Under the pieces are notes generated by a model. It was not told the origin of the DNA and ran no database searches. It saw nothing but the letters and a program-made list of their open reading frames with translations. Made by a program: the position numbers and the translations under genes. A stretch of DNA of 64,000 bases, taken from NCBI GenBank assembly GCA_002344005.1, contig DDTD01000043.1, positions 1,746 to 65,745 on the forward strand, written 5' to 3'. The stretch comes from Ignavibacteria bacterium UBA2373 (lineage in GTDB: Bacteria > Bacteroidota > Ignavibacteria > Kapaibacteriales > UBA961). Shown one piece after another: positions 10,919 through 38,021 of the stretch. Position 1 is the stretch's first letter, and each line of letters starts with the position of its first letter.

Positions 10919-12202
10919 ATGAGTGAAAAGCAAGAAACAAAAGAACAACTGACAAGCAGGGACGGACTGTATGATATTCCTGTTGTTGATTTGCAGCAGT
11001 ACCGCTATCATTTACCTGACGATAGAATAGCGCAATTCCCTTTAGAACAAAGAGATGGAAGTAAGTTGCTTATTGCAGACCCTCGTGCAATGACTATAAG
11101 ACATGATAATTTTTATCGTTTGGCTGACTATATTCCCGACAATACACTCTTTATTCGTAATGATACTAAAGTTATAACGGCGCGCCTATTAGCAAAAAAA
11201 TCAACAGGTGGGGCAGTAGAGTTGCTGTTGTTGTCTCCGCAGTATGGTTCGCCGCAAGATGCGATGATGCATCGCCATTCGACCGCATGGTATTGTTTGC
11301 TGGGCGGGCGTAATATAAAATCCGGTATGGTGCTGACAATTGAGTCTGAGGATAAGACATTTCTCATGGATGCGACCATTGTCAGTAAGAATGGACAACA
11401 GGCATTGGTAACCTTTACTTGGTCACCGCCGATGTATGTTTTCGCTGCTATTATTGATGTTTGCGGCACAACGCCATTACCCCCATACATGCATCGCGTT
11501 GCTACGAAGGACGATAAAGAGCGTTATCAAACAGTCTATGCCGTGACAGAAGGTTCGGTGGCTGCTCCAACAGCGGGACTACATTTTACCGAAGGTGTGT
11601 TCGACACATTGCGGGAAAAATATTGTGCATTTGCCGATGTCACTTTGCATGTGGGTTTAGGAACATTCAAACCCATCAACACCGATACACTCGAAAATTT
11701 CACCATGCACAATGAACGTTTTGAGGTGTCTTTGGCTTCAATACGAAAAATTCGGCGTTCCTTAGAACAAAAACGCACTTTCATTAGTGTTGGCACAACA
11801 TCAATGAGAACGATAGAGTCATTGTATTGGTATGGTGTATCTTTGCTCCAAAAAAAGAGGAGCTATTCACCGGAAAATCCCGCATTTGTTTCTCAATGGG
11901 AACCTTATTCCATTGTTGGTGAACGATCGGAACCATTAGAAGTGTTTCATGCATTGGAACACATTCTTGAATCGCATCAACAGCAAAGTATTGTCGGCAC
12001 AACAGAAATAATTATTGTTCCCGGTTATACTTTTTCTATTTTTGATGGGTTAGTTACCAATTTTCATCAACCCGAAAGTACACTAATGTTACTTGTTGCG
12101 GCATTTGTTGGTGAATATTGGCGAGAAATATATCAAACAGCATTAGAAGAAGAATACCGTTTTCTCAGTTATGGTGATTCATCATTGTTGTTCAAAAATT
12201 AA
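10919..12202 (+). CDS. queA: S-adenosylmethionine:tRNA ribosyltransferase-isomerase QueA
   Basis: The QueA N-terminal motif (YRYHLPDDRIAQFPLEQRDGSKLL) and C-terminal motif (PLPPYMHR..., GTTS.R..E, TNFHQPEST) are present. The ORF track uses TTG at 10886; the ATG at 10919 is preferred. The protein is longer than typical QueA proteins, which are about 345 aa. Confidence 0.8.
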   Translation: MSEKQETKEQLTSRDGLYDIPVVDLQQYRYHLPDDRIAQFPLEQRDGSKLLIADPRAMTIRHDNFYRLADYIPDNTLFIRNDTKVITARLLAKKSTGGAVELLLLSPQYGSPQDAMMHRHSTAWYCLLGGRNIKSGMVLTIESEDKTFLMDATIVSKNGQQALVTFTWSPPMYVFAAIIDVCGTTPLPPYMHRVATKDDKERYQTVYAVTEGSVAAPTAGLHFTEGVFDTLREKYCAFADVTLHVGLGTFKPINTDTLENFTMHNERFEVSLASIRKIRRSLEQKRTFISVGTTSMRTIESLYWYGVSLLQKKRSYSPENPAFVSQWEPYSIVGERSEPLEVFHALEHILESHQQQSIVGTTEIIIVPGYTFSIFDGLVTNFHQPESTLMLLVAAFVGEYWREIYQTALEEEYRFLSYGDSSLLFKN

Positions 12203-12230
12203 TACGTTATTTATCAATAAGGAGTAGTAT

Positions 12231-13136
12231 ATGCATGTTAGTTCAGGCGGTGGTAATGCCGAAAAAGAAAAAGCAACGAAGAATGCGCTTTATGCCGGTA
12301 TTTTAGATACGGGGGTAACACTTGCTGCATTGTTGTTTTCCAGTTCTTCAGTCCTTTTGGCTGATTTTTTAAAAACAACTCTTGAGGGAATTGCGGTATT
12401 ACTTGCATGGTTATCTTTACGGAGAATAATTTATGGACGTAATCAAGAATTTGACTATGGTATTGGTAAGTTAGAAAGTTTATCAAGTGTATTTGTCGGT
12501 GTACTGATGGCTCTTGCCGTCTTAATTATTGTCGGTAATTCAATAAAAAATATTCTTAGTCCCGGTCATGTCGAAGGACTTGGTTTATATATAAGTGGGG
12601 TCGCTCAAATTGTCTTTGGTGTCATTAATACGAAAATGGCTTTAAATTCACGACGTATTGCAAAAGTATCGCCTTCGCCAATTATTACTGCACAACAACA
12701 ACTCTTTACTACACGTGCATTCGGTAATATCTTTATATTGTTGTCATTAAGTTTAAGTATGGCTCTACATGATTATACATGGTCGGCATATATTGACCCT
12801 GTTGCATCATTAGTGATTGCGGGTTTTATAGGCTTCAGTGCAATGGGTGTATTTACCGATTCATTTAATGATTTATTAGATAAAACTCTTGATGAAGAAT
12901 ATCAAATGATTATTCTGCGTGAATTAGCATTACATTTTGATGAATATGAAGATTTGCATGGTATTCGCTCACGTCGTTCGGGAAGCCATGTTTTTATTGA
13001 AATATTTCTCGAATGTGATAAAGATAAAAAAGTAGGAGATATTCAGTCTTTTATGGATACATTACGCAAAGATTTGGAAAGTAAAATTGCAAATAGCCGT
13101 GTTATTATTGGTTTATCGCAGGAACGAGTAAAATAA
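12231..13136 (+). CDS. cation diffusion facilitator (CDF) family cation efflux transporter
   Basis: It has 6 transmembrane segments and the CDF C-terminal cytoplasmic domain, with an AAGGAG ribosome-binding site upstream. Confidence 0.8.
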   Translation: MHVSSGGGNAEKEKATKNALYAGILDTGVTLAALLFSSSSVLLADFLKTTLEGIAVLLAWLSLRRIIYGRNQEFDYGIGKLESLSSVFVGVLMALAVLIIVGNSIKNILSPGHVEGLGLYISGVAQIVFGVINTKMALNSRRIAKVSPSPIITAQQQLFTTRAFGNIFILLSLSLSMALHDYTWSAYIDPVASLVIAGFIGFSAMGVFTDSFNDLLDKTLDEEYQMIILRELALHFDEYEDLHGIRSRRSGSHVFIEIFLECDKDKKVGDIQSFMDTLRKDLESKIANSRVIIGLSQERVK

Positions 13137-13137
13137 T

Positions 13138-13770
13138 ATGGGTAATTTTGTTCATCACAATATAGGCGGTATTATTGCCGGTACAAGTTGTGGTGTCATT
13201 GGATATATGTACGCTTCTGTACCCTTGCCGGAGTCTGTTTCGGCAGGGGTATTGTGTTATATTAGTTCTTTGCTGCCGGATATAGATAGCCCAGTAAGCA
13301 AACCTGCAGAGTTTGTGGTGAATATATGCAGCGCCTTAGTCCCTACTTTATTGTTCTCGTATTTTTCTGAATATCATTTGCATACATCGTCATATATTAC
13401 TCTTGCCATGGTTGGATATTTGGCGACCGGTATTCTTATTAAACAAATTATTCGGAGAATTACAGTTCACAGAGGAATAATACATAGTATTCCCATGGCT
13501 GTGCTGTGGGGCGCGATTGTCTTTATTCTTTTACGCAAGGAAGATAGTATTATTCAAAACAGTATGAGTTTATCCGCAATATCGGGATTTATAGTACATC
13601 TGTTGATAGATGAAATGTTTTCCGTTGTTGATATAAGCGGAGGTACATTTATGCCTAAACGGTCTTTTGGAACTGCTTTGAAATTGACAGGTATGTCGGC
13701 TTTTTCTACCATACTTATGTATGTATTCCTTTCTGTTGTGTTATGGTATTGTTTTGTCATTCTCCCTTAA
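13138..13770 (+). CDS. membrane-bound metal-dependent hydrolase (DUF457/YdjM-like)
   Basis: It has His-containing N-terminal motifs (HHNIGG) and conserved His/Asp within transmembrane helices (IHS, HLLIDE). It starts 2 bp after the CDF stop. Confidence 0.55.
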   Translation: MGNFVHHNIGGIIAGTSCGVIGYMYASVPLPESVSAGVLCYISSLLPDIDSPVSKPAEFVVNICSALVPTLLFSYFSEYHLHTSSYITLAMVGYLATGILIKQIIRRITVHRGIIHSIPMAVLWGAIVFILLRKEDSIIQNSMSLSAISGFIVHLLIDEMFSVVDISGGTFMPKRSFGTALKLTGMSAFSTILMYVFLSVVLWYCFVILP

Positions 13771-13821
13771 CATTTTATTTGTGTTAGAAAAGTAACTTCT
13801 ATTGTGCAACAGGTAGTTTGA

Positions 13822-14694
13822 TTATTGCAAAGTCATAATTTTTTCACAATATTGTCTATATGATGAATTTGGTAAAGAAATAATATGACGCATTAATTCT
13901 TCTTCGTTAATATATTTCATTAAAAAAGCAATTTCTTCCAGACAAGCAATTTTCATACCTTGTCTTTTTTCAATAGCATGAATGAATGTTCCGGCTTCGA
14001 GCAAACTTTCGGGAGTCCCTGTGTCAAGCCATGCAATACCTCTGCCCATAATTTCCACTTGAAGTGTATTCTGCTGTAAGTAAGCATTATGGATATCGGT
14101 AATTTCTAATTCTCCGCGAGGACTTGGTTGTACATTTTTGGCTATATTGACTACGTCTGATGAAAATACATATAAGCCGGGAATAGCATACTGTGATTTT
14201 GGTAATTTTGGTTTTTCTTCGATAGAAAGTACTTCACCGTTTTCGCCAAATTCGACAACACCATATCGTTCGGGATCAGTAACTTGATAGCCGAAAATAG
14301 TGCCGCCGATATTTTTTTCCAAAGCATTGCGCAAGAAATCCAATTTACCATAAAATACATTGTCGCCAAGAATAAGACATACTTGGTTATTGTTGATAAA
14401 TTCTTCACCAATGATGAAGGCTTCTGCCAGTCCTCTTGGTGCGGTCTGAATTGCGTATTTGAGAGAAATACCCCATTGCGAACCATCGCCGAGCAGCTTC
14501 TGGAATAAAGGCATATCATGGGGCGTAGTGATGAGGAGTATGTCGCGAATGCCCCCAAGCATGAGTGTTGCCAATGGATAATAGATAAGAGGTTTATCGT
14601 AAATGGGCTGTAACTGTTTGCTGCAAATGGTGGAAAGGGGATACAGACGGCTGCCACTACCCCCGGCAAGCACTATTCCTTTAGTTGGCTTCAT
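13822..14694 (-). CDS. rfbA: glucose-1-phosphate thymidylyltransferase
   Basis: MKPTKGIVLAGGSGSRLYPLS... and the full RmlA signature are present. The likely start is at the internal Met at 14694 rather than the ORF-track start at 14709. Confidence 0.9.
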   Translation of the reverse strand: MKPTKGIVLAGGSGSRLYPLSTICSKQLQPIYDKPLIYYPLATLMLGGIRDILLITTPHDMPLFQKLLGDGSQWGISLKYAIQTAPRGLAEAFIIGEEFINNNQVCLILGDNVFYGKLDFLRNALEKNIGGTIFGYQVTDPERYGVVEFGENGEVLSIEEKPKLPKSQYAIPGLYVFSSDVVNIAKNVQPSPRGELEITDIHNAYLQQNTLQVEIMGRGIAWLDTGTPESLLEAGTFIHAIEKRQGMKIACLEEIAFLMKYINEEELMRHIISLPNSSYRQYCEKIMTLQ

Positions 14695-14784
14695 ATCATT
14701 CCATTTCAAATAATTTGTGTGAGTACAAAAATACCGGTGTTTGTCTCAACGTCGAAAATCAAAATATTTCTATCATGGTGATTT

Positions 14785-15189
14785 ATGGTATCGCAGGAGC
14801 GTACAATTGTGTTCTTTGATGGTGTCTGTGGCTTATGCAACTCTATGGTTGATTGGCTTATACGAGCTGATCGTCACCGTCATTTGTACTTTTCTCCTTT
14901 GCAAGGTATCACAGCACAAGAACATGGCATAAACTTGCCTGCAGATAAAGATCCTGACACTCTTATCTGTTACACATCAGGGAAACAGTATGAACGTTCT
15001 GATGCAATCTTGCACATTGTGCGGCGGCTTGGTTTACCCTATTCACTTCTTTGTATTTTTGTGCTTATTCCTCGACCGGTCAGGAATGCTATGTATAATA
15101 TTCTTGCTGCCAAACGCTATCAGATTTTTGGCAAAAAAGAGAGTTGCAGACTACCTTCACCGGAAGAAAGACAGTATTTTTTACCATAA
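14785..15189 (+). CDS. thiol-disulfide oxidoreductase, DCC family (DUF393)
   Basis: The FDGVCGLCNSMVDWL motif is present. Confidence 0.7.
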   Translation: MVSQERTIVFFDGVCGLCNSMVDWLIRADRHRHLYFSPLQGITAQEHGINLPADKDPDTLICYTSGKQYERSDAILHIVRRLGLPYSLLCIFVLIPRPVRNAMYNILAAKRYQIFGKKESCRLPSPEERQYFLP

Positions 15190-15204
15190 TCTTCAATTTG
15201 TCGT

Positions 15205-16713
15205 ATGTCAATAATCGGAAAATCTCTTACCCTCACCATTGCCAATGATGTGCAATTCTTGCCCACTGTTTTACGTGCTGTCAATGACATGGCGCATATT
15301 CAAGGGTTCACACCAGAAGATATTCATAGATTAGAATTGGGCACTGAGGAAGCCGTAGCGAATGTAATTAAGCATGCTTTTGCTCATGGTACAACAGAAT
15401 ATTTTTCCATAGTCATCACAGCGGAATCCCTTGGTTTACGGATTACTATTTTTGATCAAGGTATGCCTTTCGATCCCGAGCAATTACCTGCATATTCACC
15501 GGAAGAAGTCGCCTCAACAATGACATCACGAGGCTTGGGTGTCTTTCTGATTCGAAAATTTATTGATGAAGTATCATTTCATAATCTCGGCAGAAAGGGA
15601 CATGAGACGGTATTGTTCAAATATCTGCATCGTGAAAATATTTCAGAGATGTTGGCTTATGATGAAAAGCAGCAAGCAGAGCATGAACGTACTGAAGATG
15701 AATTGCCTAAAGGTTCAGTGAGTTATGATGTGCGTCGGATGAAGCCGGTCGAAGCGATTGAGGTATCAAAATGTGCCTACAGTTCGTATGGTTATGCATA
15801 TGTATATGAAAACATCTATTATCCGGAGCGTGTTCGGGAGTTAAATGAAAATGATAACTTGATTTCCTTTGTAGCTGTTTCCGATGCAAGTGAAGTTATG
15901 GGACATTCGGCTTTAGTTCCTTCCCATGACGATACCGGCATTGCAGAAATGGGAGTGAGTTTTGTAAAACCACGCTATCGTGGACAAGGATGTTTGAAGG
16001 CATTATCGGAGGCAAGGCTCAGTGAAGGAGCACGTCGCGGCTTAACGGGTGTATATATGCAAGCAGTCACTACTCATCCTTACTCACAAAAACCTGCTCA
16101 TGCTAATGGTTTTTCTGATACGGCATTGATGCTGGCAAGAGCAGATGTTCTTGAATTTAAGGAAATTGAACAGAAGAAGAGACAAAGAGAATCCTTAGTA
16201 ATCGCTTATAAATATTTAAGTACGCCTCCCACCATGACAGTATATGCACCCGTGCATCATAAGCAGATATTACAAAAAACATTCGATTTGCTTGATGCTC
16301 GGATTGAATGGGGAAAAGAAGTCATTGCAAATGTTCAAGGAGTTCAAGCAAATATAGCTTTGAAAACCGATAGTTACAGTGGGGCGACAATCACCGTAAA
16401 AGCGTATGGTGAAGAGTATGCCCTCACGATAAAAAAACTTGTTAAGGGATTGTGCTATGATGGAGTTATTGCCATATATGTTCAATTGCCGCTCTCAGAC
16501 CCTATAACACAATCAGCAATTATCGAAATGGAGAAAATAGGATTCTTCTATTGCGGCATTATGCCCGGCTCAAATGGCAATAATATTTTCATTATGCAAT
16601 ATCTTAATAATTATCCTTTCGATTATAGTATTTTACGTTTAGATTCCGATTTCGGTAAAGAATTAGCACTTTATATAGAACAAGATTTTCAACGAATTAA
16701 CACAATATTATGA
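15205..16713 (+). CDS. fusion protein: RsbW-like anti-sigma-factor HATPase kinase domain plus a C-terminal GNAT-like acetyltransferase domain
   Basis: The N-terminal 140 aa match the HATPase_c_2/RsbW pattern (EEAVANVIKHAF, GLGVFLIRKFIDEV). The C-terminal half carries a GNAT-like motif (KPRYRGQGCLKAL). Confidence 0.55.
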   Translation: MSIIGKSLTLTIANDVQFLPTVLRAVNDMAHIQGFTPEDIHRLELGTEEAVANVIKHAFAHGTTEYFSIVITAESLGLRITIFDQGMPFDPEQLPAYSPEEVASTMTSRGLGVFLIRKFIDEVSFHNLGRKGHETVLFKYLHRENISEMLAYDEKQQAEHERTEDELPKGSVSYDVRRMKPVEAIEVSKCAYSSYGYAYVYENIYYPERVRELNENDNLISFVAVSDASEVMGHSALVPSHDDTGIAEMGVSFVKPRYRGQGCLKALSEARLSEGARRGLTGVYMQAVTTHPYSQKPAHANGFSDTALMLARADVLEFKEIEQKKRQRESLVIAYKYLSTPPTMTVYAPVHHKQILQKTFDLLDARIEWGKEVIANVQGVQANIALKTDSYSGATITVKAYGEEYALTIKKLVKGLCYDGVIAIYVQLPLSDPITQSAIIEMEKIGFFYCGIMPGSNGNNIFIMQYLNNYPFDYSILRLDSDFGKELALYIEQDFQRINTIL

Positions 16714-17150
16714 GAACAATAGCATTGCTCTTTGTTTTTATTGCTTTTTTATGCGGATGTTCGAAGGCACCGGAATTTTATGGTAAAGAACCCTTCGTCA
16801 AAACACCGGCACTCACTGTTAGCCAAGCATTAGAACCAACAAATTTCCATCAAAGTATTGTCGTTCGTGCTACCGTACAATCTGTTTGCAAAACAGAAGG
16901 ATGTTGGACAATATTGACGGATGGTAAACAATCTATGCGTGTTGTTTTTGCTCAGGGAAGATTTGCATCTCCTATGGATACTAAAGGAAAAACGGCGATA
17001 GTCGAAGGACAGATTGAACCAACAATTGTAAGCGAAGAAGATGCACGTATCTATGCAGAGCAAGCCGGCTTGGATGCACAGAAAGTCACTGCCATTAATG
17101 GTGAACAAAGAATCCCAATTTTCACAGCAGAGTCTTTGCGATTCGAGTAA
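16710..17150 (+). CDS. DUF4920-family lipoprotein
   Basis: It has a lipobox (FLCGCS), and the motif CKTEGCWTILTDGKQSMRVVF is typical of DUF4920. Confidence 0.5.
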   Translation: MRTIALLFVFIAFLCGCSKAPEFYGKEPFVKTPALTVSQALEPTNFHQSIVVRATVQSVCKTEGCWTILTDGKQSMRVVFAQGRFASPMDTKGKTAIVEGQIEPTIVSEEDARIYAEQAGLDAQKVTAINGEQRIPIFTAESLRFE

Positions 17151-17297
17151 GAGAGGCGAACCATTAAACAGTGAATAATGACATGGTTTTGCATCAATGG
17201 CATTATAAGTTTTGATATTGTTCTTATGAGAAAGGGGTCACTTGCCGCTTTCTTAATAATTTTGTAAAATTTTTTTCCTCACGTGCCCAAAGGGTAT

Positions 17298-20200
17298 TTT
17301 ATGAAAATGTTTCGATTATTTGTAAACGTTGCTTGCGCTGTATTGTGCGCAACGGTTACGCTTTTCTCTCAAACCAACCCCACGCCATATGATTTGTCAT
17401 TGGGTGATTATTCACTTTTGGCTTGGTCTCCGACAAATGCTGCGGGCGTTTATCCTCCGGGGATACGTTTCCATCGTACTGCGAATGGCAGTGCCGTTGA
17501 TCCCGGTTTAGCAGTGGAATTTACCACCGATTATACACTTGCCTATAACTTAACGGGCGGTGTACGTATCAATGGACTTGATAATGACGGATTCGGTATT
17601 GTCAATACCAGCAGCACAACAAATGGTCAACTTGGCGCAGCCGTCCTTGCACTCAATTGTGCAAATCGCTCGAATGTGACTGTGAGCTGGTTAGGTGGCA
17701 CTCTTACGCAAGGTGATGGTAATCCCACACCTCGTGAATATGCCATCCGTTTACAGTACCGCATTGGTACTACGGCGGCATGGACTGATGTGCCGGGACC
17801 AATCGAATATACCTCAGCCGGAAAAACAAATGGACATACACAAACATTCAGTACTGTATTGCCAATAGCAGTAAACAATGAACCCGTTGTGCAATTGCGT
17901 TGGAAATATTATTCGGCAGCAGCGAATAGCGGTGGTCAGCGTCCTCGCTTGCGTTTGGATGACATCGTCGTGACAAGTACTTCTGCATTTGGTACGCCCA
18001 CAGCATTGAAAATTACTTCCATCACCCCAAGCTCACCTTCTTCTACAAGCACATTCGCTGTGACTGTACAATCGGTGAATGCTTTGGGTAATCCTGTGAA
18101 TGTGCCAACGGAAACATCATTTTCTTTATCACGCTTTGCGGGTACGGGTACTTTAGCCGGAACATTAACAGGCACAATTCCGGCAAATCAAAATTCAGTA
18201 ATCGTCAGCGGGGTAAGTTATAATGTGGCGGAAAGTGGTGTGATTATTCTTGCTTCGCGTACTGCCGGTGAGTTATTGACTGATGGTCAAAGTGCCCCAT
18301 TTACAGTCACCCAAGGAGCAACGCAGACTGCTTTAATTGGCATTCAAACCAAAGGATATATTGGAAAAACATTTCAGACATTTACTGTTGAAGCACGCAG
18401 ACAAGATAATAGTGTTGATCCAAATTATACAGGTAATGTCACCGTCACCGTGGCAAGCGGTACAAATTCTGTTATCGGTACATTGACCAAACCATTAGTG
18501 AATGGAATTGCAACATTTAATGATATTCGTTTTTCTGCTGAGGGTACTTATACCTTACGCTTTTCAACAACAGGGTTAAGTTCCATAGACTCACCGCCCA
18601 TTACCATCAATCCTCGCATTACGATGCAAGATGTGCTCATTCCTCAAGTGGTAAAATCTACATCCAATTTGACTCGTGTGCCGGCATATGCTTTGGTACG
18701 TTTCGATAATCTCTTCCCCAATACGACATATCGTTTCATGACTTCGGGTTTAGAAAATCGTACTCTGATTACCTTTGGTGCAGGCAATAATCTCCATTAT
18801 TCTGCCGAAACCAATTCTTTCAATTATTCCTCCAATAAGACATTAACCTCTACATCCGTTCCGCCGGATTATTCAACCTTTATCACCGGTCCGGGTGAAA
18901 CATCCAAATCAGTTTGGATTAATATTCTCACAACAGGCAATACACGCTTTGCTGAAGGTAATTCTATGTGGTGGAGAGTCTTTTTATCGGATATTATTGG
19001 TGGCACACCCGATACATTAACCACAGTAGCTGCCAGCCGATGCGTTGAATTCGGTTCTTCAACCACACAAGCAACAGGTATTTTTGATTCGCAAAGTGGC
19101 GCTACTCCTAAAAACATTATCTGTCTCTATAATAATGAAGAGGGAACAGGTAATCCAGTGGCAACTGCATTGGTGCAAGATGACGGTACGGTGATTTTCC
19201 GCACTTTCGGTACAAATAATGTCGTAACAACCAAAGCCGTTGATTTTTATGAAGCATTAGATCAAGTCGCGGGAAGTTGGGTTACACTCATTCCCAATAA
19301 TTTAACAGGCGGCATTAAGCGCGTCGAAGAACGCCGCTTATCCGATGGTGAGATTGTACGTTTTTATACAGATGCCGATGGTGTATGGTCAACCGTTAAT
19401 ACTGTCAGAACATCATCCGGTATTACAGCTATTGATTTCCGCACGCCTCAATTGACCGTCACTTCGCCTACAGCAGGGCAGGCAATATGCGCACTCACCG
19501 ACCAACAAATTCGTTGGACTTCACGTGGTGTGAGCAATGTGAAAATTGATATTACACGCAATGGAACAGGATTCTCTCCCATTGTTGCTTCCACCGATGG
19601 ATTTGCTCAACTCTATGATTGGTTTATTACCCATGCAGAAAATGATGGCGCAACATATCAAGTGCGTGTTACCGACAATGAACATCCTATGGTGAGCGGT
19701 TTATCCCAACAATTCTCTATCACATTACCGCCTCGATTATTATTCCAGCCAATTTCACAAAACAAATGTATTGGCGACACTATTCTTTTGCGGGTTGGTA
19801 CCGAAGGAACAGCAACGGCATATCAATGGTTCAAAGATGGTCAGCCATTAACGGGCGCAACAACAAATGTTTTGCGTATCCTTTATGCAAGAGAAACCAA
19901 TACAGGAAAATATCAAGTCCGTGTCTCCGGTACATCCATCTGTGGCGATATATGGTCTGACACTGCAATCGTCTATGTCACTCCAGAGCTAACCATTCTC
20001 AAACAACCACAAGATGCTGTCGCACAATTGGGCAAAACACTTTCGCTTTCTGTGGAAGTCATGGGTACGGACAAACATAGATATCAATGGTTCAAAGGTA
20101 ATGTTGCCTTGCAGAACAGCACACGCATTTCCGGCGCACAAACCCCGAATTTGATTATCCGTGAGTTCAAAGCTACTGATAATGGCACTGACTATTTCTG

Positions 20201-21338
20201 CCGCATTTTTGCCGAAGGAAATTGCCAAATCAAAGATACTCGTCGCATTAATGTCGGTCCTTCATCCATTACTTTAGCAACGCAACCCGACACATTGGTT
20301 GCTGCATGCGAAGGGCTACCTTTCACCATGCGTGTTACCACCACTACCGTTCCTGCTGATTTACCATTGCGTTTCCGTTGGTTCAAAGGCAATACAGAAT
20401 TAACAGACGGTAATGGCATAACAGGTGCAACGACCAATACTATAGCATTTGCAAACTCATCCGCAGCAATCGCCGGAATTTATACCGTAAAAGTAGAAGC
20501 ATTATCAGGCAATGCCACAAATCAATCGCACAATATTCGTGTGGTGCTTGGCGATAAACCGCGTTTTATTATTCAGCCGCGTTCACGTGAGGTCTGTGCC
20601 GGAGAATTATTCGTTCTCAATGCCGACGCAATATCCAATTCGCTCATGGAATATCGCTGGATACGCAATGGAGTGCTTTTACCCGACAGAACAAATTCTT
20701 TTGCATTACAATTCGATACTGCCGGTCGCCAATACTTCTATCGTTGTATTGTCACAACCGAATGTGGAAGCGACACATCGGACTTATGCACAATCACAAC
20801 AACAGCATTGCCAACCATCACACAGCAACCGCCTAAAACATTGGCAATAGAGCAATCAAAATATGGTCGTTTGACAGTCGGTGCATTTGCCTCACGAGCA
20901 TTGCGCTATTCGTGGGTCAAAGACGGCAAAGCCATCGAAGGCAATAATTCTCCCGTTTTAGAAATTGCCATCGCAACCAAAAAAGATGAAGGCAAATATT
21001 GGGTGAATGTGATAGGGGATTGCGATACTCTAAGCAGCGACACAACCATCGTCACCGTCACTGCGCCATCATCGCTCAGCGAAGAAGAAACACAACGATT
21101 TGTCACGCTCTCGCCCAATCCGGCACATTCCTTTGTCACAGTATTCGTGAATCCATTGCTCAAACCATCCGCAATGCGTATCACTGATATGATTGGCAAA
21201 GAAATCATGCGCTTTGATGCTCAACAAATCAGCGAATCCATGCAAATAGATGTGCAGAACTTTATGTCCGGTCAATACTGGATTACCCTTCAATCCGACC
21301 AAGGCATACTTGTCTTGCCATTGCATATCATGAAATAA
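17298..21338 (+). CDS. very large secreted protein with about 5 Ig-like (I-set) domains and a T9SS type-A C-terminal sorting domain
   Basis: It has a signal peptide (MKMFRLFVNVACAVLCA) and repeated W/FKxG...GxYxVxV Ig-like modules. The C-terminus (LSPNPAHSFVTV...MSGQYWITLQSDQGILVLPLHIMK) matches the Por secretion-system C-terminal domain. The ORF track starts at GTG 17283. Confidence 0.75.
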   Translation, partial: FMKMFRLFVNVACAVLCATVTLFSQTNPTPYDLSLGDYSLLAWSPTNAAGVYPPGIRFHRTANGSAVDPGLAVEFTTDYTLAYNLTGGVRINGLDNDGFGIVNTSSTTNGQLGAAVLALNCANRSNVTVSWLGGTLTQGDGNPTPREYAIRLQYRIGTTAAWTDVPGPIEYTSAGKTNGHTQTFSTVLPIAVNNEPVVQLRWKYYSAAANSGGQRPRLRLDDIVVTSTSAFGTPTALKITSITPSSPSSTSTFAVTVQSVNALGNPVNVPTETSFSLSRFAGTGTLAGTLTGTIPANQNSVIVSGVSYNVAESGVIILASRTAGELLTDGQSAPFTVTQGATQTALIGIQTKGYIGKTFQTFTVEARRQDNSVDPNYTGNVTVTVASGTNSVIGTLTKPLVNGIATFNDIRFSAEGTYTLRFSTTGLSSIDSPPITINPRITMQDVLIPQVVKSTSNLTRVPAYALVRFDNLFPNTTYRFMTSGLENRTLITFGAGNNLHYSAETNSFNYSSNKTLTSTSVPPDYSTFITGPGETSKSVWINILTTGNTRFAEGNSMWWRVFLSDIIGGTPDTLTTVAASRCVEFGSSTTQATGIFDSQSGATPKNIICLYNNEEGTGNPVATALVQDDGTVIFRTFGTNNVVTTKAVDFYEALDQVAGSWVTLIPNNLTGGIKRVEERRLSDGEIVRFYTDADGVWSTVNTVRTSSGITAIDFRTPQLTVTSPTAGQAICALTDQQIRWTSRGVSNVKIDITRNGTGFSPIVASTDGFAQLYDWFITHAENDGATYQVRVTDNEHPMVSGLSQQFSITLPPRLLFQPISQNKCIGDTILLRVGTEGTATAYQWFKDGQPLTGATTNVLRILYARETNTGKYQVRVSGTSICGDIWSDTAIVYVTPELTILKQPQDAVAQLGKTLSLSVEVMGTDKHRYQWFKGNVALQNSTRISGAQTPNLIIREFKATDNGTDYFCRIFAEGNCQIKDTRRINVGPSSITLATQPDTLVAACEGLPFTMRVTTTTVPADLPLRFRWFKGNTELTDGNGITGATTNTIAFANSSAAIAGIYTVKVEALSGNATNQSHNIRVVLGDKPRFIIQPRSREVCAGELFVLNADAISNSLMEYRWIRNGVLLPDRTNSFALQFDTAGRQYFYRCIVTTECGSDTSDLCTITTTALPTITQQPPKTLAIEQSKYGRLTVGAFASRALRYSWVKDGKAIEGNNSPVLEIAIATKKDEGKYWVNVIGDCDTLSSDTTIVTVTAPSSLSEEETQRFVTLSPNPAHSFVTVFVNPLLKPSAMRITDMIGKEIMRFDAQQISESMQIDVQNFMSGQYWITLQSDQGILVLPLHIMK

Positions 21339-21365
21339 AACACTTAGCAAAACTCTCATAACAAA

Positions 21366-21400
21366 GCTCATTGTCACACAGGCAATGGGCTTTTTTATTT
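21366..21400 (+). terminator. rho-independent terminator of the T9SS cargo gene
   Basis: Stem gctcattg/caatgggc (with one U-G wobble pair) is followed by TTTTTTATTTT, 28 bp after the stop. Confidence 0.6.
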
Positions 21401-21414
21401 TGTAGCCACAGAAT

Positions 21415-22020
21415 TTCCCTCAAACCAACCACAAAGTATTCAATCCCGAAGGGATGATATAGTAATAGGAACAAGTCCATAGCAAAACCAAATCCCAACG
21501 GGATGACATACACAATGACTATACCGCTCCTTCGGAGCTACGGATACTTTCTCTGGCTTCATTGTCTATGAATATATCGCTCCTTCGGAGCTAATTCCAT
21601 CATCAACCAAAAACAATCGCCTTCCAACCACAAACCACAACCATCCAAAATTCCCCTCTTGAGGGGTGTCCGAAGGACGGGGTGGATAAACAAAACCGTA
21701 TCCATATTTCATTCAATCCCAACGAGATGATATAGTAATAGAAAACCACATTCTCCCCATCCAACCACATTTCATTCAATCACAACGGGATGATATAGTA
21801 ATAGAAAACCATATTATCCCCATCTAACCACATTTCATTCAATCCCGAAGGGATGATATAGTAATAGAAAATCATATTCCCTCAAACCAACCACAAAGTA
21901 TTCAATCCCGAAGGGATGATATAGTAATAGAAAACCATATTACCCCAAACCAACCACATTTCATTTAATCCCAACGGGATGACATAGTAATAGGGGAATC
22001 ATTGACAATTGACAATCAAC
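21415..22020. repeat. tandem array with an exact 63-bp period (5 complete units from 21706 to 22020, plus a 54-bp partial upstream copy), each unit carrying a GC-clamped triloop hairpin
   Basis: The unit consensus is atttcattcaatccc-RAN-gggatgatatagtaatagaaaaccatatt followed by a variable 14-16 nt tail (cc..aaccac). Unit starts are at 21706, 21769, 21832, 21895 and 21958. Sequence 21415-21468 is a perfect 54-bp copy of 21877-21930. Stop codons occur in all six reading frames. Confidence 0.85.
21469..21705. other. unique hairpin-rich segment embedded in the 63-bp array; candidate structured non-coding RNA (ncRNA)
   Basis: It carries two copies of GCTCC-TTC-GGAGC (21526-21538 and 21579-21591), a CCCCT-CTTG-AGGGG hairpin (21653-21666) and a GTCC-GAA-GGAC hairpin (21668-21678). 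It has no coding potential. Confidence 0.3.
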
Positions 22021-22248
22021 CTAAAAATACTATCTAACAAGCTAAAAATACTATCTAACAACCTAAAAATACTATCTAATAACCTAAAAACATAATCTAA
22101 TGACTTAAAAATATTATCTGACAAGCTAAAAATGTTATCCTATGACATAAAAACATAATCCAACAAGCTAAAAATGCTATCTGATGACCTAAAAATACTA
22201 TCTAATGAGCTAAAAATGCTATCTGACAACCTAAAAATGCTATCTGAC
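22021..22248. repeat. 11 tandem direct repeats with an exact 21-bp period (consensus ctaaaaatactatctaacaag), giving phased A5-6 tracts
   Basis: Unit starts are at 22021, 22042, 22063, 22084, 22105, 22126, 22147, 22168, 22189, 22210 and 22231. The array ends about 90 bp upstream of the start of the 22339 gene. Confidence 0.9.
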
Positions 22249-22338
22249 TTGTTGGAACATGATTTTTTTGTCTTAGAATTTGGTTTATTGTCTATTGTAT
22301 AGTATTTTTGCTTTATATATATTTCATTGAGGATTATT

Positions 22339-23508
22339 ATGGCTGATGTTAAACGTACATTTTCTATGCCCTATGCAGAATTAGTAAGCTTTGCTAATAT
22401 GTTATGTCAAAATTTGACGACAGATTTGGCTTTATTTGCTGATTATGGCGTGACTGCGCCTAAAATTGCTGCTTTGCAGGCATTGTCTGATGCTTTTGAG
22501 GCGTTCCCGTCGGATCAAACATTTGTGTATCAGATGATGATTGCCACTGAAGATAAAAATGCTAAACGTGATGAGCTTATTAAGCTGATTAAGTCTTTTG
22601 CGGTGAGGTTTGCGGCTGTGTTCGGGTTCGATAGTCCGCGTTATAAGGGCTTGAAAACAAGTAATATAGGGTTGCAAACGGATTTGAATGTGTTGGCTAC
22701 TGCTCGTTTTGTGGCGCAGGAGGCGGAAAGCTCTTTGGCGCAGCTTGCTTCGGAGGGCATAACGCAGGCAATGGTGGATAATTTTGTTGCCGAAGCGAAT
22801 GAGTTTGAGCAATTGATGTATGCACAAAAGTCGGCGAAGATGTTGCGCTCGGTGAAAACGGATGAACGCGCTACGAAGGGCAATGAAATTTATACTTTGA
22901 TTGTGAAATATTGTTCGTATGGCAAGCAAATTTTCGAGGCGGGCACTGCTAATTATGAAAAATATGTGATTACGGATAGTTATGTGCCGCAAACGCCTCC
23001 GCAAGCACCGGAAACGCTGTTTTATCAAAATGGCGAGCTTTCTTATAGCGAAAGTGATGGGGCATCGAGCTATAAAGTGGAGCGCAATCCCACTCCGACG
23101 GATGAAAATGCGTGGATTATTGTCTATGAGGGCGATGAAACGGAGGTTGCGGTTGGTCAAATTGGCGATGGTATGCGCATGAGGGTCTGGGCACGTAATG
23201 ATGCCGGCTTCTCGGTGAATCCAAGCTATTCGGTATATAGTGTTGTGTTTTTGAATGTGCCGAGTAATTTCCATTTTTCTGCCGGAACGCTGTATTGGGA
23301 TGCGGTTGATTGGGCTAATGGCTATGAATTTGAGTCTTCATTGAATCAAACAGAGTGGGAAGTGTTGAGCAATCAAAATGTGTTGGAATATACGCCTGTG
23401 CCGGGTTCGGGTATGGTGTATTATCGTGTGCGGGCAATGTATGGTAATGTGCATTCGGATTATGCTGCGGTGATTGGTATTGATTGGGGTAATGTGGTGA
23501 ATGGGTGA
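22339..23508 (+). CDS. hypothetical protein: N-terminal alpha-helical domain of about 220 aa plus two FN3-like domains; no signal peptide
   Basis: A GAGGA Shine-Dalgarno sequence lies 5 nt upstream of the ATG at 22339; the ORF track begins at 22327. FN3 hallmarks are present (YKVERNP...MRMRVWARN, and GYEFESS...MVYYRVRAMYGN). The coding strand is strongly G+T-rich. Confidence 0.6.
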   Translation: MADVKRTFSMPYAELVSFANMLCQNLTTDLALFADYGVTAPKIAALQALSDAFEAFPSDQTFVYQMMIATEDKNAKRDELIKLIKSFAVRFAAVFGFDSPRYKGLKTSNIGLQTDLNVLATARFVAQEAESSLAQLASEGITQAMVDNFVAEANEFEQLMYAQKSAKMLRSVKTDERATKGNEIYTLIVKYCSYGKQIFEAGTANYEKYVITDSYVPQTPPQAPETLFYQNGELSYSESDGASSYKVERNPTPTDENAWIIVYEGDETEVAVGQIGDGMRMRVWARNDAGFSVNPSYSVYSVVFLNVPSNFHFSAGTLYWDAVDWANGYEFESSLNQTEWEVLSNQNVLEYTPVPGSGMVYYRVRAMYGNVHSDYAAVIGIDWGNVVNG

Positions 23509-23641: not shown

Positions 23642-24058
23642 ATGGTGAATCAAATATTTCAAATTTCTAATGATAATTTATGGAATTTAATTAATGACCA
23701 TTTTGGAAATGGTGGAGGGGTCTATAAAATTATTGCTATGAGTGATAATAAACCTACAGCAATAAACAGATTTATTGGCATAGACACAACGGGTGTACTT
23801 TATATAGGAAAAGCAGACTCTTTTGTGGATAGAGTAATTACTTTAAAAAGGTCACTATTACCTGATTATACTGATACGAATCATAAAGTTGGTAAAGTAT
23901 ATAAGGAACATCCAATAATTGCAGCACATTTTCCACTTGAAAATTTATATGTTGATCTTCAAGCAGATGACAATCCGGAAAACCTTGAAAGTATATTGAT
24001 TGATGAATATTTTAAAAAATACGGTGAGGTCCCTCCACTAAATGCAAATCAGAGTTGA
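23642..24058 (+). CDS. hypothetical small protein (138 aa) with a weak GIY...YIG-like motif pair
   Basis: It has an AAGGAG ribosome-binding site. The motifs GVYKI and LYIGKA are separated by about 26 residues, which is longer than in the canonical GIY-YIG nuclease domain. Its AT-rich composition differs sharply from the flanking GT-skewed genes. Confidence 0.45.
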   Translation: MVNQIFQISNDNLWNLINDHFGNGGGVYKIIAMSDNKPTAINRFIGIDTTGVLYIGKADSFVDRVITLKRSLLPDYTDTNHKVGKVYKEHPIIAAHFPLENLYVDLQADDNPENLESILIDEYFKKYGEVPPLNANQS

Positions 24059-31599: not shown

Positions 31600-31752
31600 C
31601 ACATGGCTAAAGTACAACAAAGATATGTCAGATATTTTGCACAATTGTTGAATGAGATGCGCCAAAATATGGAAAAATGAGAAGAAATAACCAATTGGCA
31701 TGAAGATTGAAAGTGATTTTCAATAATGTCAAACTTTTAGGAAAGTAGGGTT

Positions 31753-32013
31753 ATGGACCCCGATAATTCGAGTCGGCAATTTATTATTAATGCCGTACCA
31801 TCTTTTGGCGATGTCTTAGGTAATGACATCAATATAATTGATTTACCAAATGACATATCAGTATCTGTGTATGAACAAATACACTCTAAGTTGTGTACTT
31901 TACCACTTCCACGTGCATCAGCATTCCGATGTACCATTGATGTTGATGGGGTAGTTCTTGATAAAATAGAGCACGCCTATCGTATGCAGCCGGCTATACA
32001 ATTATGTATGTAA
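31753..32013 (+). CDS. hypothetical small protein (86 aa)
   Basis: This is an isolated ORF with an AGGAAA ribosome-binding site. A terminator hairpin follows directly. I see no recognisable motif. Confidence 0.3.
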   Translation: MDPDNSSRQFIINAVPSFGDVLGNDINIIDLPNDISVSVYEQIHSKLCTLPLPRASAFRCTIDVDGVVLDKIEHAYRMQPAIQLCM

Positions 32014-32035
32014 ACACAAAACGAAGTAAATTTTT

Positions 32036-32068
32036 TGCCGTCAAAGTTATACTTTGGCGGCTTTTTTT
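32036..32068 (+). terminator. rho-independent terminator
   Basis: gccgtcaaag-ttatac-tttggcggc is followed by T9. Confidence 0.5.
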
Positions 32069-37481: not shown

Positions 37482-37496
37482 AAATAATAAAGAAAT

Positions 37497-37729
37497 CCCA
37501 GGGGCATACATACACACCACAACAAGGGCAGAGGGGCAAAGTCAAAACTTGCCCCTCATTATTTACAATTTTGCGGATTGTGCATTTATTCTTTAGTTCA
37601 TTGTAAGCCGAATAAATCATTTTACAAGTTCATGAACAGTAGTTTGTGACCTTTGTTAGAACATCCTAGGGGAACACATACACACCATCACAACGAGGGC
37701 AGAGGGGCAAGGCGCAAGTCTTAGCCCCT
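37497..37729 (+). repeat. two copies (37497-37558 and 37666-37729) of a structured element of about 63 nt, each ending in a strong hairpin
   Basis: Both copies share the core ccYAGGGG-A-ACATACACACCA-CACAAC-AGGGCAGAGGGGCAA. Copy 1 ends in a perfect 9-bp stem (gaggggcaa/ttgcccctc) with a 9-nt loop, followed by a U-rich tract. Confidence 0.6.
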
Positions 37730-38021
37730 TATGTCTTTTGTATCACAATTGTTGAGCATCGGATAATCTTTTTACTTTGCAGCAGAAGTACTTAGATCAT
37801 CGAGATGAACTAGTAATGACCGATTCTGTACTATTCGCAGTTTCTTATTTTCCGCGATAGCAGAGTGTTGTATGTGCATCAGCTTGCTGATTTTTTTACC
37901 TTATATAGCTTCATGTAAGTGTTTTCATTTTCCACTAGATCATCCGCCAACAGCAAACGGATAGCAGGAGGGCAGCATTAAACTTTGTAAATTTGCATAT
38001 ATAGTCACTTAAAAATGAGCA

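What the first reader, a model, noticed from the sequence alone, without database searches (positions are those of the whole stretch)
21415..22020. Exact 63-bp-period tandem array of hairpin-bearing non-coding units downstream of the giant T9SS cargo gene
Five complete 63-bp units (starting at 21706, 21769, 21832, 21895 and 21958) plus a perfect 54-bp partial copy (21415-21468 equals 21877-21930) share a conserved 47-nt core, atttcattcaatccc-RAN-gggatgatatagtaatagaaaaccatatt. The core contains a 5-bp GC-clamped stem with a GAA or AAC triloop, followed by a short variable tail (cc..aaccac). Stop codons occur in all six frames, so it is non-coding. This is not CRISPR: the variable parts are only 14-16 nt and resemble each other. 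GC-clamped hairpins repeated at a fixed period in an AT-rich genome suggest either a tandem small RNA (sRNA) array, a processed RNA repeat, or a reiterated protein or RNA-binding site.
Basis: seen in the sequence. Interest (0 to 1): 0.75.

Follow-up and report, generated by a model that had tools for sequence, protein, structure and literature searches.

The report
Strain-specific amplified hairpin repeat module
The 63-bp array is real, but it is a strain-specific tandem amplification of one small hairpin module from a dispersed, mosaic family of intergenic DNA repeats in a Kapabacteria genome, and nothing supports a conserved small-RNA array.

Summary
There is a 63-bp tandem array at 21702-21993 (4.6 copies) plus a perfect 54-bp extra copy at 21415. 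It is non-coding and not CRISPR. The sRNA reading is not supported.

The conserved core is a 27-37-nt module: a 5-bp stem closed by C-GNA-G, then a G..AT..TAATAG tail. Nine copies, in both orientations, lie in this one intergenic region and none elsewhere in the 64 kb. Four of them form a 273-bp composite unit that recurs at 81-87% identity at four or more unrelated loci of related genomes, sometimes in tandem. Similar modules with compensatory stem changes occur in unrelated metagenome contigs, always clustered and intergenic.

The repeat block starts 9 bp after a synteny break with sister species. A strain with 99.6%-identical flanks lacks the array entirely.

Two of five units have broken stems. 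Rfam finds nothing. The only promoter match is the one for the downstream gene.

The closest analogues are REP/BIME clusters, pneumococcal BOX and the Porphyromonas BrickBuilt MITE, but no membership test is met.

Two things remain unexplained. Every repeat layer sits in a 21-bp register (21, 63, 273, 462). An adjacent 21-bp x 11 array recurs upstream of every homologue of the downstream gene that I examined.

The parts
21363..21402 (+). Intrinsic terminator of the T9SS Ig-domain cargo gene (17283-21338). It is the last sequence collinear with sister species.
   Evidence: A 13-pair stem plus a T-run. Collinearity with L048/L050 ends at 21402-21406.
21415..21471 (+). Solitary copy of the 63-bp unit. 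Its first 54 bp are identical to 21877-21930, offset 462 bp (22 x 21). This is the left edge of the repeat block.
   Evidence: The allele-B strain is identical up to about 21422-21425 and then non-homologous.
21442..21714 (+). One 273-bp composite unit 'H'. It holds two hairpin modules on + (21439-21475, 21488-21524), two on - (21506-21542, 21559-21595), and a CCCCTCTTGAGGGG / GTCC-GAA-GGAC / GGGGTGGATAAAC block (21651-21692).
   Evidence: 81-87% identical to composite units at unrelated loci L028, L035, L039, L047. Modules were scored with covariance model R1.
21702..21993 (+). The reported 63-bp tandem array. It is 4.6 copies of [ATCCC-(GAA/AAC)-GGGAT hairpin + GATATAGTAATAGAAAAC tail + C/A-rich spacer], with R1 modules at 21712, 21775, 21838, 21901 and 21964.
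22017..22248 (+). Second array of 21-bp units x 11 (CTAAAAATRCTATCTRAnnAR). It is not coding.
   Evidence: An array with the same period lies upstream of every examined homologue of the downstream gene.
22279..22310 (+). Putative Bacteroidota-type promoter (TTTG-N20-TATTTTTG) of the 389-aa gene. An inverted partial copy of the 21-bp unit overlaps the -7 box.
   Evidence: This is the only TAnnTTTG in the 1-kb spacer on either strand. The same architecture is present in L010, L011, L015 and in allele B. Inverted repeat I5.
22339..23508 (+). Gene for a 389-aa protein of unknown function (N-terminal helical domain plus two fn3-like domains). It travels with the 21-bp array between genomic contexts.
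   Evidence: No Pfam or PHROG hit. Only 18 homologues were found. AF2 mean pLDDT 85.5, and PDB matches are tandem FnIII only. It occurs in different neighbourhoods.
23642..24058 (+). Gene for a 138-aa protein with no family match. It stays next to the 389-aa gene in a third genomic context.

Best explanation
The 63-bp array is a recent, strain-specific tandem amplification of one module of a dispersed, mosaic family of non-coding DNA repeats in a Candidatus Kapabacteria chromosome.

The basic module is about 27-37 nt. It has a 5-bp stem closed by a C-GNA-G triloop, followed by a conserved single-stranded-type tail (G..AT..TAATAG). Modules occur in clusters, in both orientations, only between genes.

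In this lineage four modules plus a GC-rich block make a 273-bp composite unit. That unit has spread to several unrelated intergenic sites and can itself be tandemly repeated.

At this site, one composite unit is followed by 4.6 copies of its first module plus spacer. I infer that these arose by slipped-strand or unequal recombination between neighbouring modules, and that this happened in a 21-bp register.

The block sits in untranscribed-looking spacer DNA between a terminator and the promoter of the next gene. It is replaced wholesale in other strains. I therefore infer that the 63-bp array has no sequence-specific cellular function of its own. At most it acts as spacer or insulator, or as binding sites for whatever protein recognises the hairpin.

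I also infer, less firmly, that the hairpin acts in DNA.
For: Shown:
1. The module family is real, and pairing was not assumed. A search requiring only C-GNA-G plus the G.HAT tail found 86 sites, and 61 of them had all four outer stem positions complementary, against about 2% expected by chance. Stems were ATCCC, GCTCC, ACTCC, ACCCC, GCCCC, GTTCC, ACACC and GCGCC. The unpaired hits lay mostly inside genes.
2. Model R1 finds 9 modules in the window, all within 21439-22000, 7 on + and 2 on -. It finds 70 in other loci, always clustered in one intergenic region per locus.
3. Window 21442-21744 is 81-87% identical to composite units at four distinct loci. Two of these lie on one 114-kb contig (L028, L035). 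L039/L045 and L047/L029, the latter with 273-bp x 3.0 in tandem, are the others.
4. Sister species (T9SS orthologue 89% aa) are collinear with the window from 11612 to 21406 and then diverge. The repeat block starts at 21415.
5. A strain with 99.6% (upstream) and 98.0% (downstream gene) nucleotide identity has a 704-bp spacer. It contains no composite unit, no 63-bp array and no R1 hit. It is identical to the window only up to about 21422. Each allele is invariant across 4-5 independent assemblies.
6. Copy number of this unit differs between relatives. L010 has 1.7 copies, and instead carries three GTTCC modules at a 63-bp spacing.
7. Two of five units have lost the stem without compensation.
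8. There is no Rfam family, no tRNA, and no promoter match inside the block.
9. Published REP clusters show the same behaviour: single elements or dimers reiterated in tandem together with flanking DNA (PMC3733652).
Against: - Genome-wide copy number in the source genome could not be measured. Strict-pattern scans gave only 1 hit in 185,579 species genomes and 25 in the metagenome collection. The family is therefore low-copy compared with classical REPs, or my patterns were too narrow.
- No transposase, RAYT or integrase is present in the window or in about 300 kb of related loci (a weak test).
- No terminal inverted repeats or target duplications were found, so mobility is inferred only from distribution.
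- The exact 21-bp register of all repeat layers, and the invariance of each allele across samples, hint at constraint. A purely neutral model does not predict either.
- Transcription was not measured.
Confidence: 0.6

Rival explanations
1. Phased cis-regulatory array. The hairpin units and the adjacent 21-bp units are binding sites on one face of the helix, or a curved-DNA scaffold, for a regulator or nucleoid protein. That protein controls the promoter of the 389-aa gene.
For: - All repeat layers are multiples of 21 bp (21, 63, 273, 462), and most other spacings are near-integer numbers of helical turns.
- The block lies directly upstream of a conserved TTTG-N20-TATTTTTG promoter.
- 21-bp arrays of 11-15 copies lie upstream of every examined homologue of the gene, down to 32% identity, although the unit sequences have diverged.
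- BrickBuilt segments have promoter activity (PMC4596501).
Against: - The 63-bp array and all hairpin modules are missing from allele B and from the distant homologue loci, which keep only a 21-bp array. The hairpin part is therefore dispensable for the gene.
- In L035 and L046 the arrays are not followed by a co-oriented gene.
- A-tracts are not universal among the arrays.
- No binding protein was identified.
Confidence: 0.2
2. Tandem small-RNA or RNA-sponge array. Each 63-nt unit is transcribed and acts, or is processed, as a hairpin RNA, for example to titrate an RNA-binding protein through CA-rich spacers.
For: - The + strand is strongly C- and A-rich, with small GC hairpins.
- The + strand of the array folds slightly better than shuffles (z = -1.96).
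- Units 2 and 4 fold well as RNA (z = -3.9 and -3.0).
Against: - There is no Rfam match and no promoter consensus within or upstream of the array. A terminator lies immediately upstream.
- The units do not share a structure, and two have lost the hairpin.
- The array is absent in a near-identical strain and in sister species.
- The same module occurs on both strands within 150 bp.
Confidence: 0.06
3. Plasmid- or phage-type replication origin or partition site. The 21-bp units are iterons, the hairpins are origin structures, and the 389-aa protein is the initiator.
For: - There are eleven 21-bp direct repeats, with an inverted partial copy over the promoter of the adjacent gene. This is a classic iteron/rep layout.
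- There is an 8/9 DnaA-box-like TTATCCACC in the composite unit (read from the sequence).
Against: - The protein model is a helical domain plus two fn3 domains, and only FnIII structures match it. It has no Rep, Par or HTH family.
- The context is an ordinary chromosome with no mobile-element genes.
- There is no GC-skew switch.
- The same array type lies next to unrelated genes.
Confidence: 0.03
4. Decayed coding repeat. The periods 63 bp (21 codons) and 21 bp (a heptad) are remnants of a repeat-protein gene.
For: - All periods are multiples of 3.
- One + frame of the 63-bp array has only two stops.
- A minus frame of the 21-bp arrays reads as heptads (LDSIFRL / FDDIFNL / LEEVCKA) and is open in several loci. 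Gene callers call ORFs of 90-100 aa there.
Against: - No frame is open in all four closely related 21-bp arrays (window, L015, L010, L011).
- Open frames are expected by chance for short repeated units (about 0.7 per frame for 7 codons).
- The module tail carries TAA-TAG, and the modules occur in both orientations.
- There is no start codon or homologue.
Confidence: 0.03

Closest known systems
REP elements and BIME clusters (enterobacteria, Pseudomonas; GTAG/CGTC-tagged REPs)
   Same: Both are short extragenic stem-loops with a conserved flank. Both are dispersed between genes, clustered in alternating orientations into mosaic units, and locally reiterated in tandem together with flanking DNA (PMC3733652). 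Stems keep pairing through compensatory changes.
   Different: The stem is only 5 bp with a GNA triloop. There is no GTAG or CGTC tag at the stem foot; the conserved part is a 3' G..AT..TAATAG tail. Copy number looks low. No RAYT was found. The host is Kapabacteria.
BrickBuilt MITE of Porphyromonas gingivalis (PMC4596501)
   Same: Both are Bacteroidota intergenic elements of up to about 1 kb, made of a minisatellite (23 nt, 1-22.8 copies) between leader and tail segments. BrickBuilt has about 19 copies per genome. Its neighbours are often T9SS-CTD proteins or peptidase M16. Segments of BrickBuilt have promoter activity, and gene callers place spurious ORFs in it.
   Different: The period here is 21, not 23. 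The 'leader' here is itself built of repeated hairpin modules. The IS5-type terminal inverted repeat GAGACCTTTGCA is absent. There is no sequence similarity.
Pneumococcal BOX elements (boxA-boxB(n)-boxC)
   Same: Both are modular intergenic repeats in which one internal module of about 45-63 bp varies in tandem copy number between loci and strains, and both have stem-loop potential (PMC3049150 was listed; the details are from my own knowledge).
   Different: The sequence and host are unrelated. BOX has a fixed A-B-C order, whereas the order and orientation of modules vary here.
Mycobacterial interspersed repetitive units (MIRU)
   Same: Both are minisatellite-like tandem arrays of 40-100 bp at many intergenic loci, with periods that are multiples of 3 (from my own knowledge).
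   Different: MIRUs sit inside operons and carry short overlapping ORFs. Here the arrays lie between a terminator and a promoter and carry stops.
CRISPR arrays
   Same: Both have a hairpin-bearing repeat at a fixed period.
   Different: The variable part is only about 16 nt and the copies resemble each other. No cas gene is present in 64 kb. The units are head-to-tail copies.

Membership tests
REP / BIME | Extragenic palindromic stem-loop, dispersed at many intergenic sites | tested here: met
   There are 9 modules in one spacer of the window and 70 in other loci, all intergenic and clustered. Pairing is kept through compensatory changes.
REP / BIME | Conserved GTAG or CGTC tetranucleotide at one end of the palindrome | tested here: not met
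   Alignment A2 shows a conserved A before the stem and G after it, with a TAATAG tail 8 nt downstream. GTAG occurs only as loop plus first 3' stem base.
REP / BIME | High copy number (typically more than 100 per genome) | tested here: inconclusive
   There is one cluster in 64 kb. Related contigs totalling about 250 kb hold 4 loci. Strict-pattern scans gave 1 genome hit and 25 metagenome hits. The whole genome is not available to these tools.
REP / BIME | Cognate RAYT (Y1 HUH transposase) in the genome | not testable with these tools
   None is present in the window. tblastn with an IS200 TnpA recalled from memory found nothing in the held DNA. The rest of the 4-Mb genome could not be searched.
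BrickBuilt MITE | IS5-type terminal inverted repeats GAGACCTTTGCA / TGCAAAGGTCTC | tested here: not met
   The degenerate motif is absent from 21339-22338 on both strands.
BrickBuilt MITE | 23-nt tandem repeat between non-repetitive leader and tail | tested here: not met
   The period is 21, and the flanking segment is itself repetitive.
CRISPR | Repeats separated by unique spacers of about 26-72 nt, with cas genes nearby | tested here: not met
   The 16-nt variable tails resemble each other. No cas family appears among any window ORF of 100 aa or more.
Known RNA families (Rfam 15) | Match at the family gathering score | tested here: not met
   There are 0 matches in the window. The best sub-threshold hits have E = 0.11-8 and do not coincide with the units.
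Iteron-type replication origin | Adjacent gene encodes a Rep-type initiator | tested here: not met
   The protein is a helical domain plus 2 x fn3. It has no Rep or HTH family or fold.

The most novel reading that the evidence does not exclude
The C-GNA-G hairpin modules and the 21-bp-period minisatellites could be two parts of one previously undescribed repeat system of Kapabacteria/Bacteroidota. Its layers are all built in a 21-bp (two-turn) register. They are shuffled as cassettes between intergenic sites and strains. They travel with particular genes: a 21-bp array of 11-15 units lies upstream of every examined member of the 389-aa fn3 family. If so, the system is either a portable, helically phased promoter-upstream architecture bound by an unknown protein, or a new hairpin-guided (HUH-like) mobile repeat with a built-in length ruler.
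Probability: 0.2. Interest if true: 0.7.

Novelty: new variant of a known kind. Interest (0 to 1): 0.4.

Why it matters
The finding is not a new RNA, so it should not be pursued as an sRNA array. It does document, in a barely studied lineage (Kapabacteria from activated sludge), a mosaic intergenic repeat family comparable to REP/BIME, BOX and BrickBuilt.

It has two unusual properties:
- a strict 21-bp register across repeat layers from 21 to 462 bp;
- a persistent pairing of 21-bp minisatellites with one orphan gene family, despite rapid sequence turnover.

These regions mark synteny breaks and break short-read assemblies: several contigs end inside the arrays. They therefore matter for assembling MAGs and for reading strain variation. 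If the phasing reflects protein binding, they would give a testable case of repeat-built promoter architecture in Bacteroidota.

Tried and rejected
- Rfam at gathering score on the window and at E <= 10 on the region found nothing usable.
- ARAGORN found no tRNA or tmRNA.
- A viral contig scan with the module pattern gave 0 hits.
- Iteron/Rep idea: rejected after the structure model and PDB fold search of the 389-aa protein. The afdb50 library was unavailable.
- Coding hypothesis for both arrays: six-frame translations anchored across eight arrays showed no frame open in all of them.
- Origin of replication: no GC-skew switch.
- A generic sigma-70 promoter scan was no better than shuffles, 5 found against 5.4 expected.
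- BrickBuilt TIR search was negative.
- IS200/Y1 transposase tblastn on all held DNA was negative. This is a weak test, because the query was recalled from memory.
- Literature searches for 21-bp repeats in Bacteroidetes, for Kapabacteria repeats and for the assembly accession found nothing specific.
- The first genome-collection pattern was too strict, requiring AYATAGTAATA.
- Per-unit and whole-array folding as RNA and as DNA gave no shared structure.

Full report
**1. The observation**

The window has a 1,000-bp spacer (21339-22338). Upstream lies a 1,351-aa Ig-domain protein with a T9SS C-terminal sorting domain (17283-21338; Pfam Por_Secre_tail). Downstream lies a 389-aa ORF (22339-23508).

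Tandem Repeats Finder reports a 63-bp array at 21702-21993: 4.6 copies, 86% matches, no indels, score 409. The repeat finder adds a separate copy at 21415-21471. The core pattern occurs 6 times in the window, all here, against 0 expected. The 54-bp identity 21415-21468 = 21877-21930 is exact. All six frames carry stops.

The corrections are these:
- The fifth unit matches for only about 36 nt.
- Units 1 and 2 each have an uncompensated stem mutation.
- A second array of 21-bp units x 11 (22017-22248) abuts the first.

**2. What the unit is made of**

A genome-collection scan with the core found a single, unrelated 1.7-kb contig (L009). It carries the same small hairpins side by side.

A looser metagenome scan found 25 loci. 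I then searched all held DNA for C-GNA-G followed, 4 nt after the closing G, by a G.HAT tail, without asking the flanking bases to pair. Of 86 hits, 61 had all four outer positions complementary, against roughly 2% expected. The stems were ATCCC, GCTCC, ACTCC, ACCCC, GCCCC, GTTCC, ACACC and GCGCC. The hits with two or fewer pairs lay mostly inside genes.

The module is therefore a 5-bp hairpin with a GNA triloop, plus a tail that usually reads G..AT..TAATAG (alignment A2).

The two GCTCC-TTC-GGAGC hairpins at 21526 and 21579 are the same module on the minus strand. A covariance model of the module (R1) finds nine copies in the window. All lie within 21439-22000, seven on + and two on -, and there are none in the other 63 kb. 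In 30 other loci it finds 70 copies, always clustered in one intergenic region and in both orientations.

**3. A 273-bp composite unit**

Window 21442-21744 is 81-87% identical to segments at unrelated loci. The segment contains two + modules, two - modules and a CCCCTCTTGAGGGG / GTCC-GAA-GGAC / GGGGTGGATAAAC block. The loci are:
- L028, between recA and a T9SS cargo gene;
- L035, next to a thioredoxin-like gene on the same 114-kb contig;
- L039/L045/L041, between convergent genes;
- L047/L029/L046, where the unit is tandem at a 273-bp period (3.0 copies, 93% matches).

In the window, one such unit is followed not by more 273-bp units but by 4.6 copies of its first module plus a C/A-rich spacer. 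That is the 63-bp array.

In L010, a relative whose 389-aa protein is 84% identical, this unit is present 1.7 times. There a different module (GTTCC) is repeated three times, also at 63 bp. An unrelated contig (L023) has a 284-bp composite of four to five other module variants, repeated 2.5 times.

**4. Comparative genomics at this site**

The organism is a Candidatus Kapabacteria / 'Ignavibacteria bacterium' MAG lineage from activated sludge (GCA_016713455.1).

The spacer is 100% identical in four independent assemblies. Several short-read contigs end inside the arrays.

Sister species whose T9SS orthologue is 89% identical are collinear with the window from 11612 to 21402-21406. That point is the end of the T9SS terminator. 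Beyond it they have no similarity to anything in the window, and a different gene follows 120 bp downstream. A 71% orthologue has a convergent methyltransferase 60 bp downstream. The repeat block starts at 21415.

The decisive case is a strain carrying a 389-aa variant (P0154). It is represented by a 1.6-Mb contig and four other assemblies. Its flanks are 99.6% and 98.0% identical to the window. Its spacer is 704 bp and is identical to the window only up to about 21422. After that it is non-homologous: there is no composite unit, no 63-bp array and no R1 hit. It has another GC-rich block, its own 21-bp array (12.2 copies of a diverged unit) and a different 5'UTR, while the TTTG-N20-TATTTTTG promoter skeleton is kept.

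A third variant (P0155) places the allele-B-like upstream region, the 389-aa gene and the neighbouring 138-aa gene in yet another chromosomal context. It also shows a 106-bp indel of one block between samples.

So the 63-bp array is present or absent among strains, and the whole spacer behaves as an exchangeable mosaic.

**5. The RNA reading**

- Rfam has no match and there are no tRNAs.
- A 13-pair terminator with a T-run ends transcription of the upstream gene at 21402.
- The only match to the Bacteroidota -7 box TAnnTTTG in the spacer, on either strand, is at 22303. It has TTTG 20 nt upstream and lies 29 nt before the ATG of the 389-aa gene.
- The whole array folds with z = -1.96 on + and -0.06 on -.
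- Single units give different minimum-energy structures. Unit 1 is essentially unstructured. Unit 2 prefers a 10-bp alternative stem that uses the 3' arm of the small hairpin.
- The same module occurs on both strands within 150 bp.

None of this excludes transcription, but nothing supports a structured, conserved RNA.

**6. Other ideas tested**

Coding: the periods are multiples of 3 and some frames are nearly open. However, no frame is open in all four closely related 21-bp arrays, and open frames are expected by chance for such short units.

Iteron origin: the layout (direct repeats, plus an inverted partial copy over the promoter of the next gene) resembles rep/iteron systems. However, the 389-aa protein models as a helical domain plus two fn3 domains. 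It matches only FnIII structures and has no Pfam or PHROG family. The window is ordinary chromosome with gyrA, prfA, folD and queA, and has no cas, transposase or integrase genes. There is no GC-skew switch.

**7. Mechanism**

Shown:
- The module family keeps its pairing through compensatory changes.
- The family has a dispersed, clustered, intergenic distribution.
- There is a composite unit shared between loci.
- Copy number differs between relatives.
- The array is present or absent between strains.
- The block lies at a synteny break.
- Two units have decayed.

Inferred:
- The array arose by slipped-strand or unequal recombination between adjacent modules.
- The modules spread and are exchanged between intergenic sites.
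- The 63-bp array itself has no sequence-specific function beyond spacer or insulator, or possibly protein-binding DNA.

A further inference is less secure. It rests on my own knowledge that C-GNA-G triloops are exceptionally stable DNA mini-hairpins, and that HUH/Y1 enzymes recognise a hairpin plus a nearby fixed sequence. On that basis the hairpin would act in single-stranded DNA. No such enzyme was found in the DNA I could search.

**8. Comparison with known systems**

It works like REP/BIME clusters, for which tandem reiteration of elements with flanking DNA is described (PMC3733652). It also works like pneumococcal BOX elements, and especially like the Bacteroidota BrickBuilt MITE: a 23-nt minisatellite with leader and tail, 19 copies per genome, intergenic, with promoter activity (PMC4596501).

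It is not a member of any of these. There is no GTAG/CGTC tag, no IS5-type TIR, the period is different, and there is no sequence similarity. I rate it a new variant of a known kind.

**9. What remains unexplained**

Every repeat layer is in a 21-bp register:
- 14 or more independent arrays have period 21 with 11-15 copies;
- 63 bp occurs twice independently;
- 273 = 13 x 21;
- the 462-bp offset of the perfect copy = 22 x 21.

Other spacings (53, 106, 284, 421) are near-integer numbers of 10.5-bp turns. Only 49 is not. This was noticed post hoc and the spacings were not enumerated exhaustively.

A 21-bp array of 11-15 units lies upstream of every examined homologue of the 389-aa gene, down to 32% identity and in different neighbourhoods. 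The unit sequences have diverged to about 50%. These arrays also occur next to other genes, together with hairpin modules, in unrelated contigs (L028, L034, L043).

This could reflect face-of-helix binding or curvature upstream of promoters, or a length ruler in the amplification process. It is the basis of the 'novel case'.

Noticed in passing
window 22017-22248: A 21-bp x 11 tandem array sits directly upstream of the 389-aa gene's promoter. Arrays of the same period (11-15 copies) but diverged sequence lie upstream of all examined homologues (L010, L011, L015, L016, L018/19, L021, L052, L060).
   Followed up: yes
window 22339-23508 and 23642-24058: An orphan gene pair: a 389-aa protein (helical domain plus two fn3-like domains, only 18 homologues found) and a 138-aa protein with no family. 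The 389-aa gene occurs in at least three different chromosomal contexts in close relatives. In one of those contexts (L060) the 138-aa gene is still next to it.
   Followed up: partly
window 21402-21415: Collinearity with sister species ends exactly after the T9SS gene's terminator. Nothing downstream in the window (about 42 kb) matches the sister loci, so this is a rearrangement or insertion boundary.
   Followed up: partly
window 21681-21689 (minus strand): TTATCCACC, an 8/9 match to the DnaA box consensus, is conserved in every copy of the 273-bp composite unit. It has no other origin features and may be chance.
   Followed up: no
window 21415-21425; L060 about 1895-1902; spacers of the 63-bp units: Junctions between alternative upstream modules fall at C/A-rich CCC(N)AAAC motifs. 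These may be micro-homology or a recombination site.
   Followed up: no
window 21787-21821 (unit 2): A 10-bp alternative stem (GGGATGATAT / ATATTATCCC) competes with the small hairpin. It is intact in unit 2 only, so it is probably incidental.
   Followed up: partly
L026 106-226; L043 845-878: 7-bp tandem repeats (TTCACTT / TTCACTG, up to 17 copies) lie next to hairpin modules in unrelated contigs. 7 is a divisor of 21.
   Followed up: no
window 31600-32053 and 37482-38021: Two other long spacers (454 and 540 bp) have no R1 module and no tandem repeat. I did not examine them further.
   Followed up: no
L001-L008, L015, L011, L047: Short-read metagenome contigs repeatedly end inside these arrays, so such regions are likely under-represented in MAGs and in pattern scans.
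   Followed up: partly
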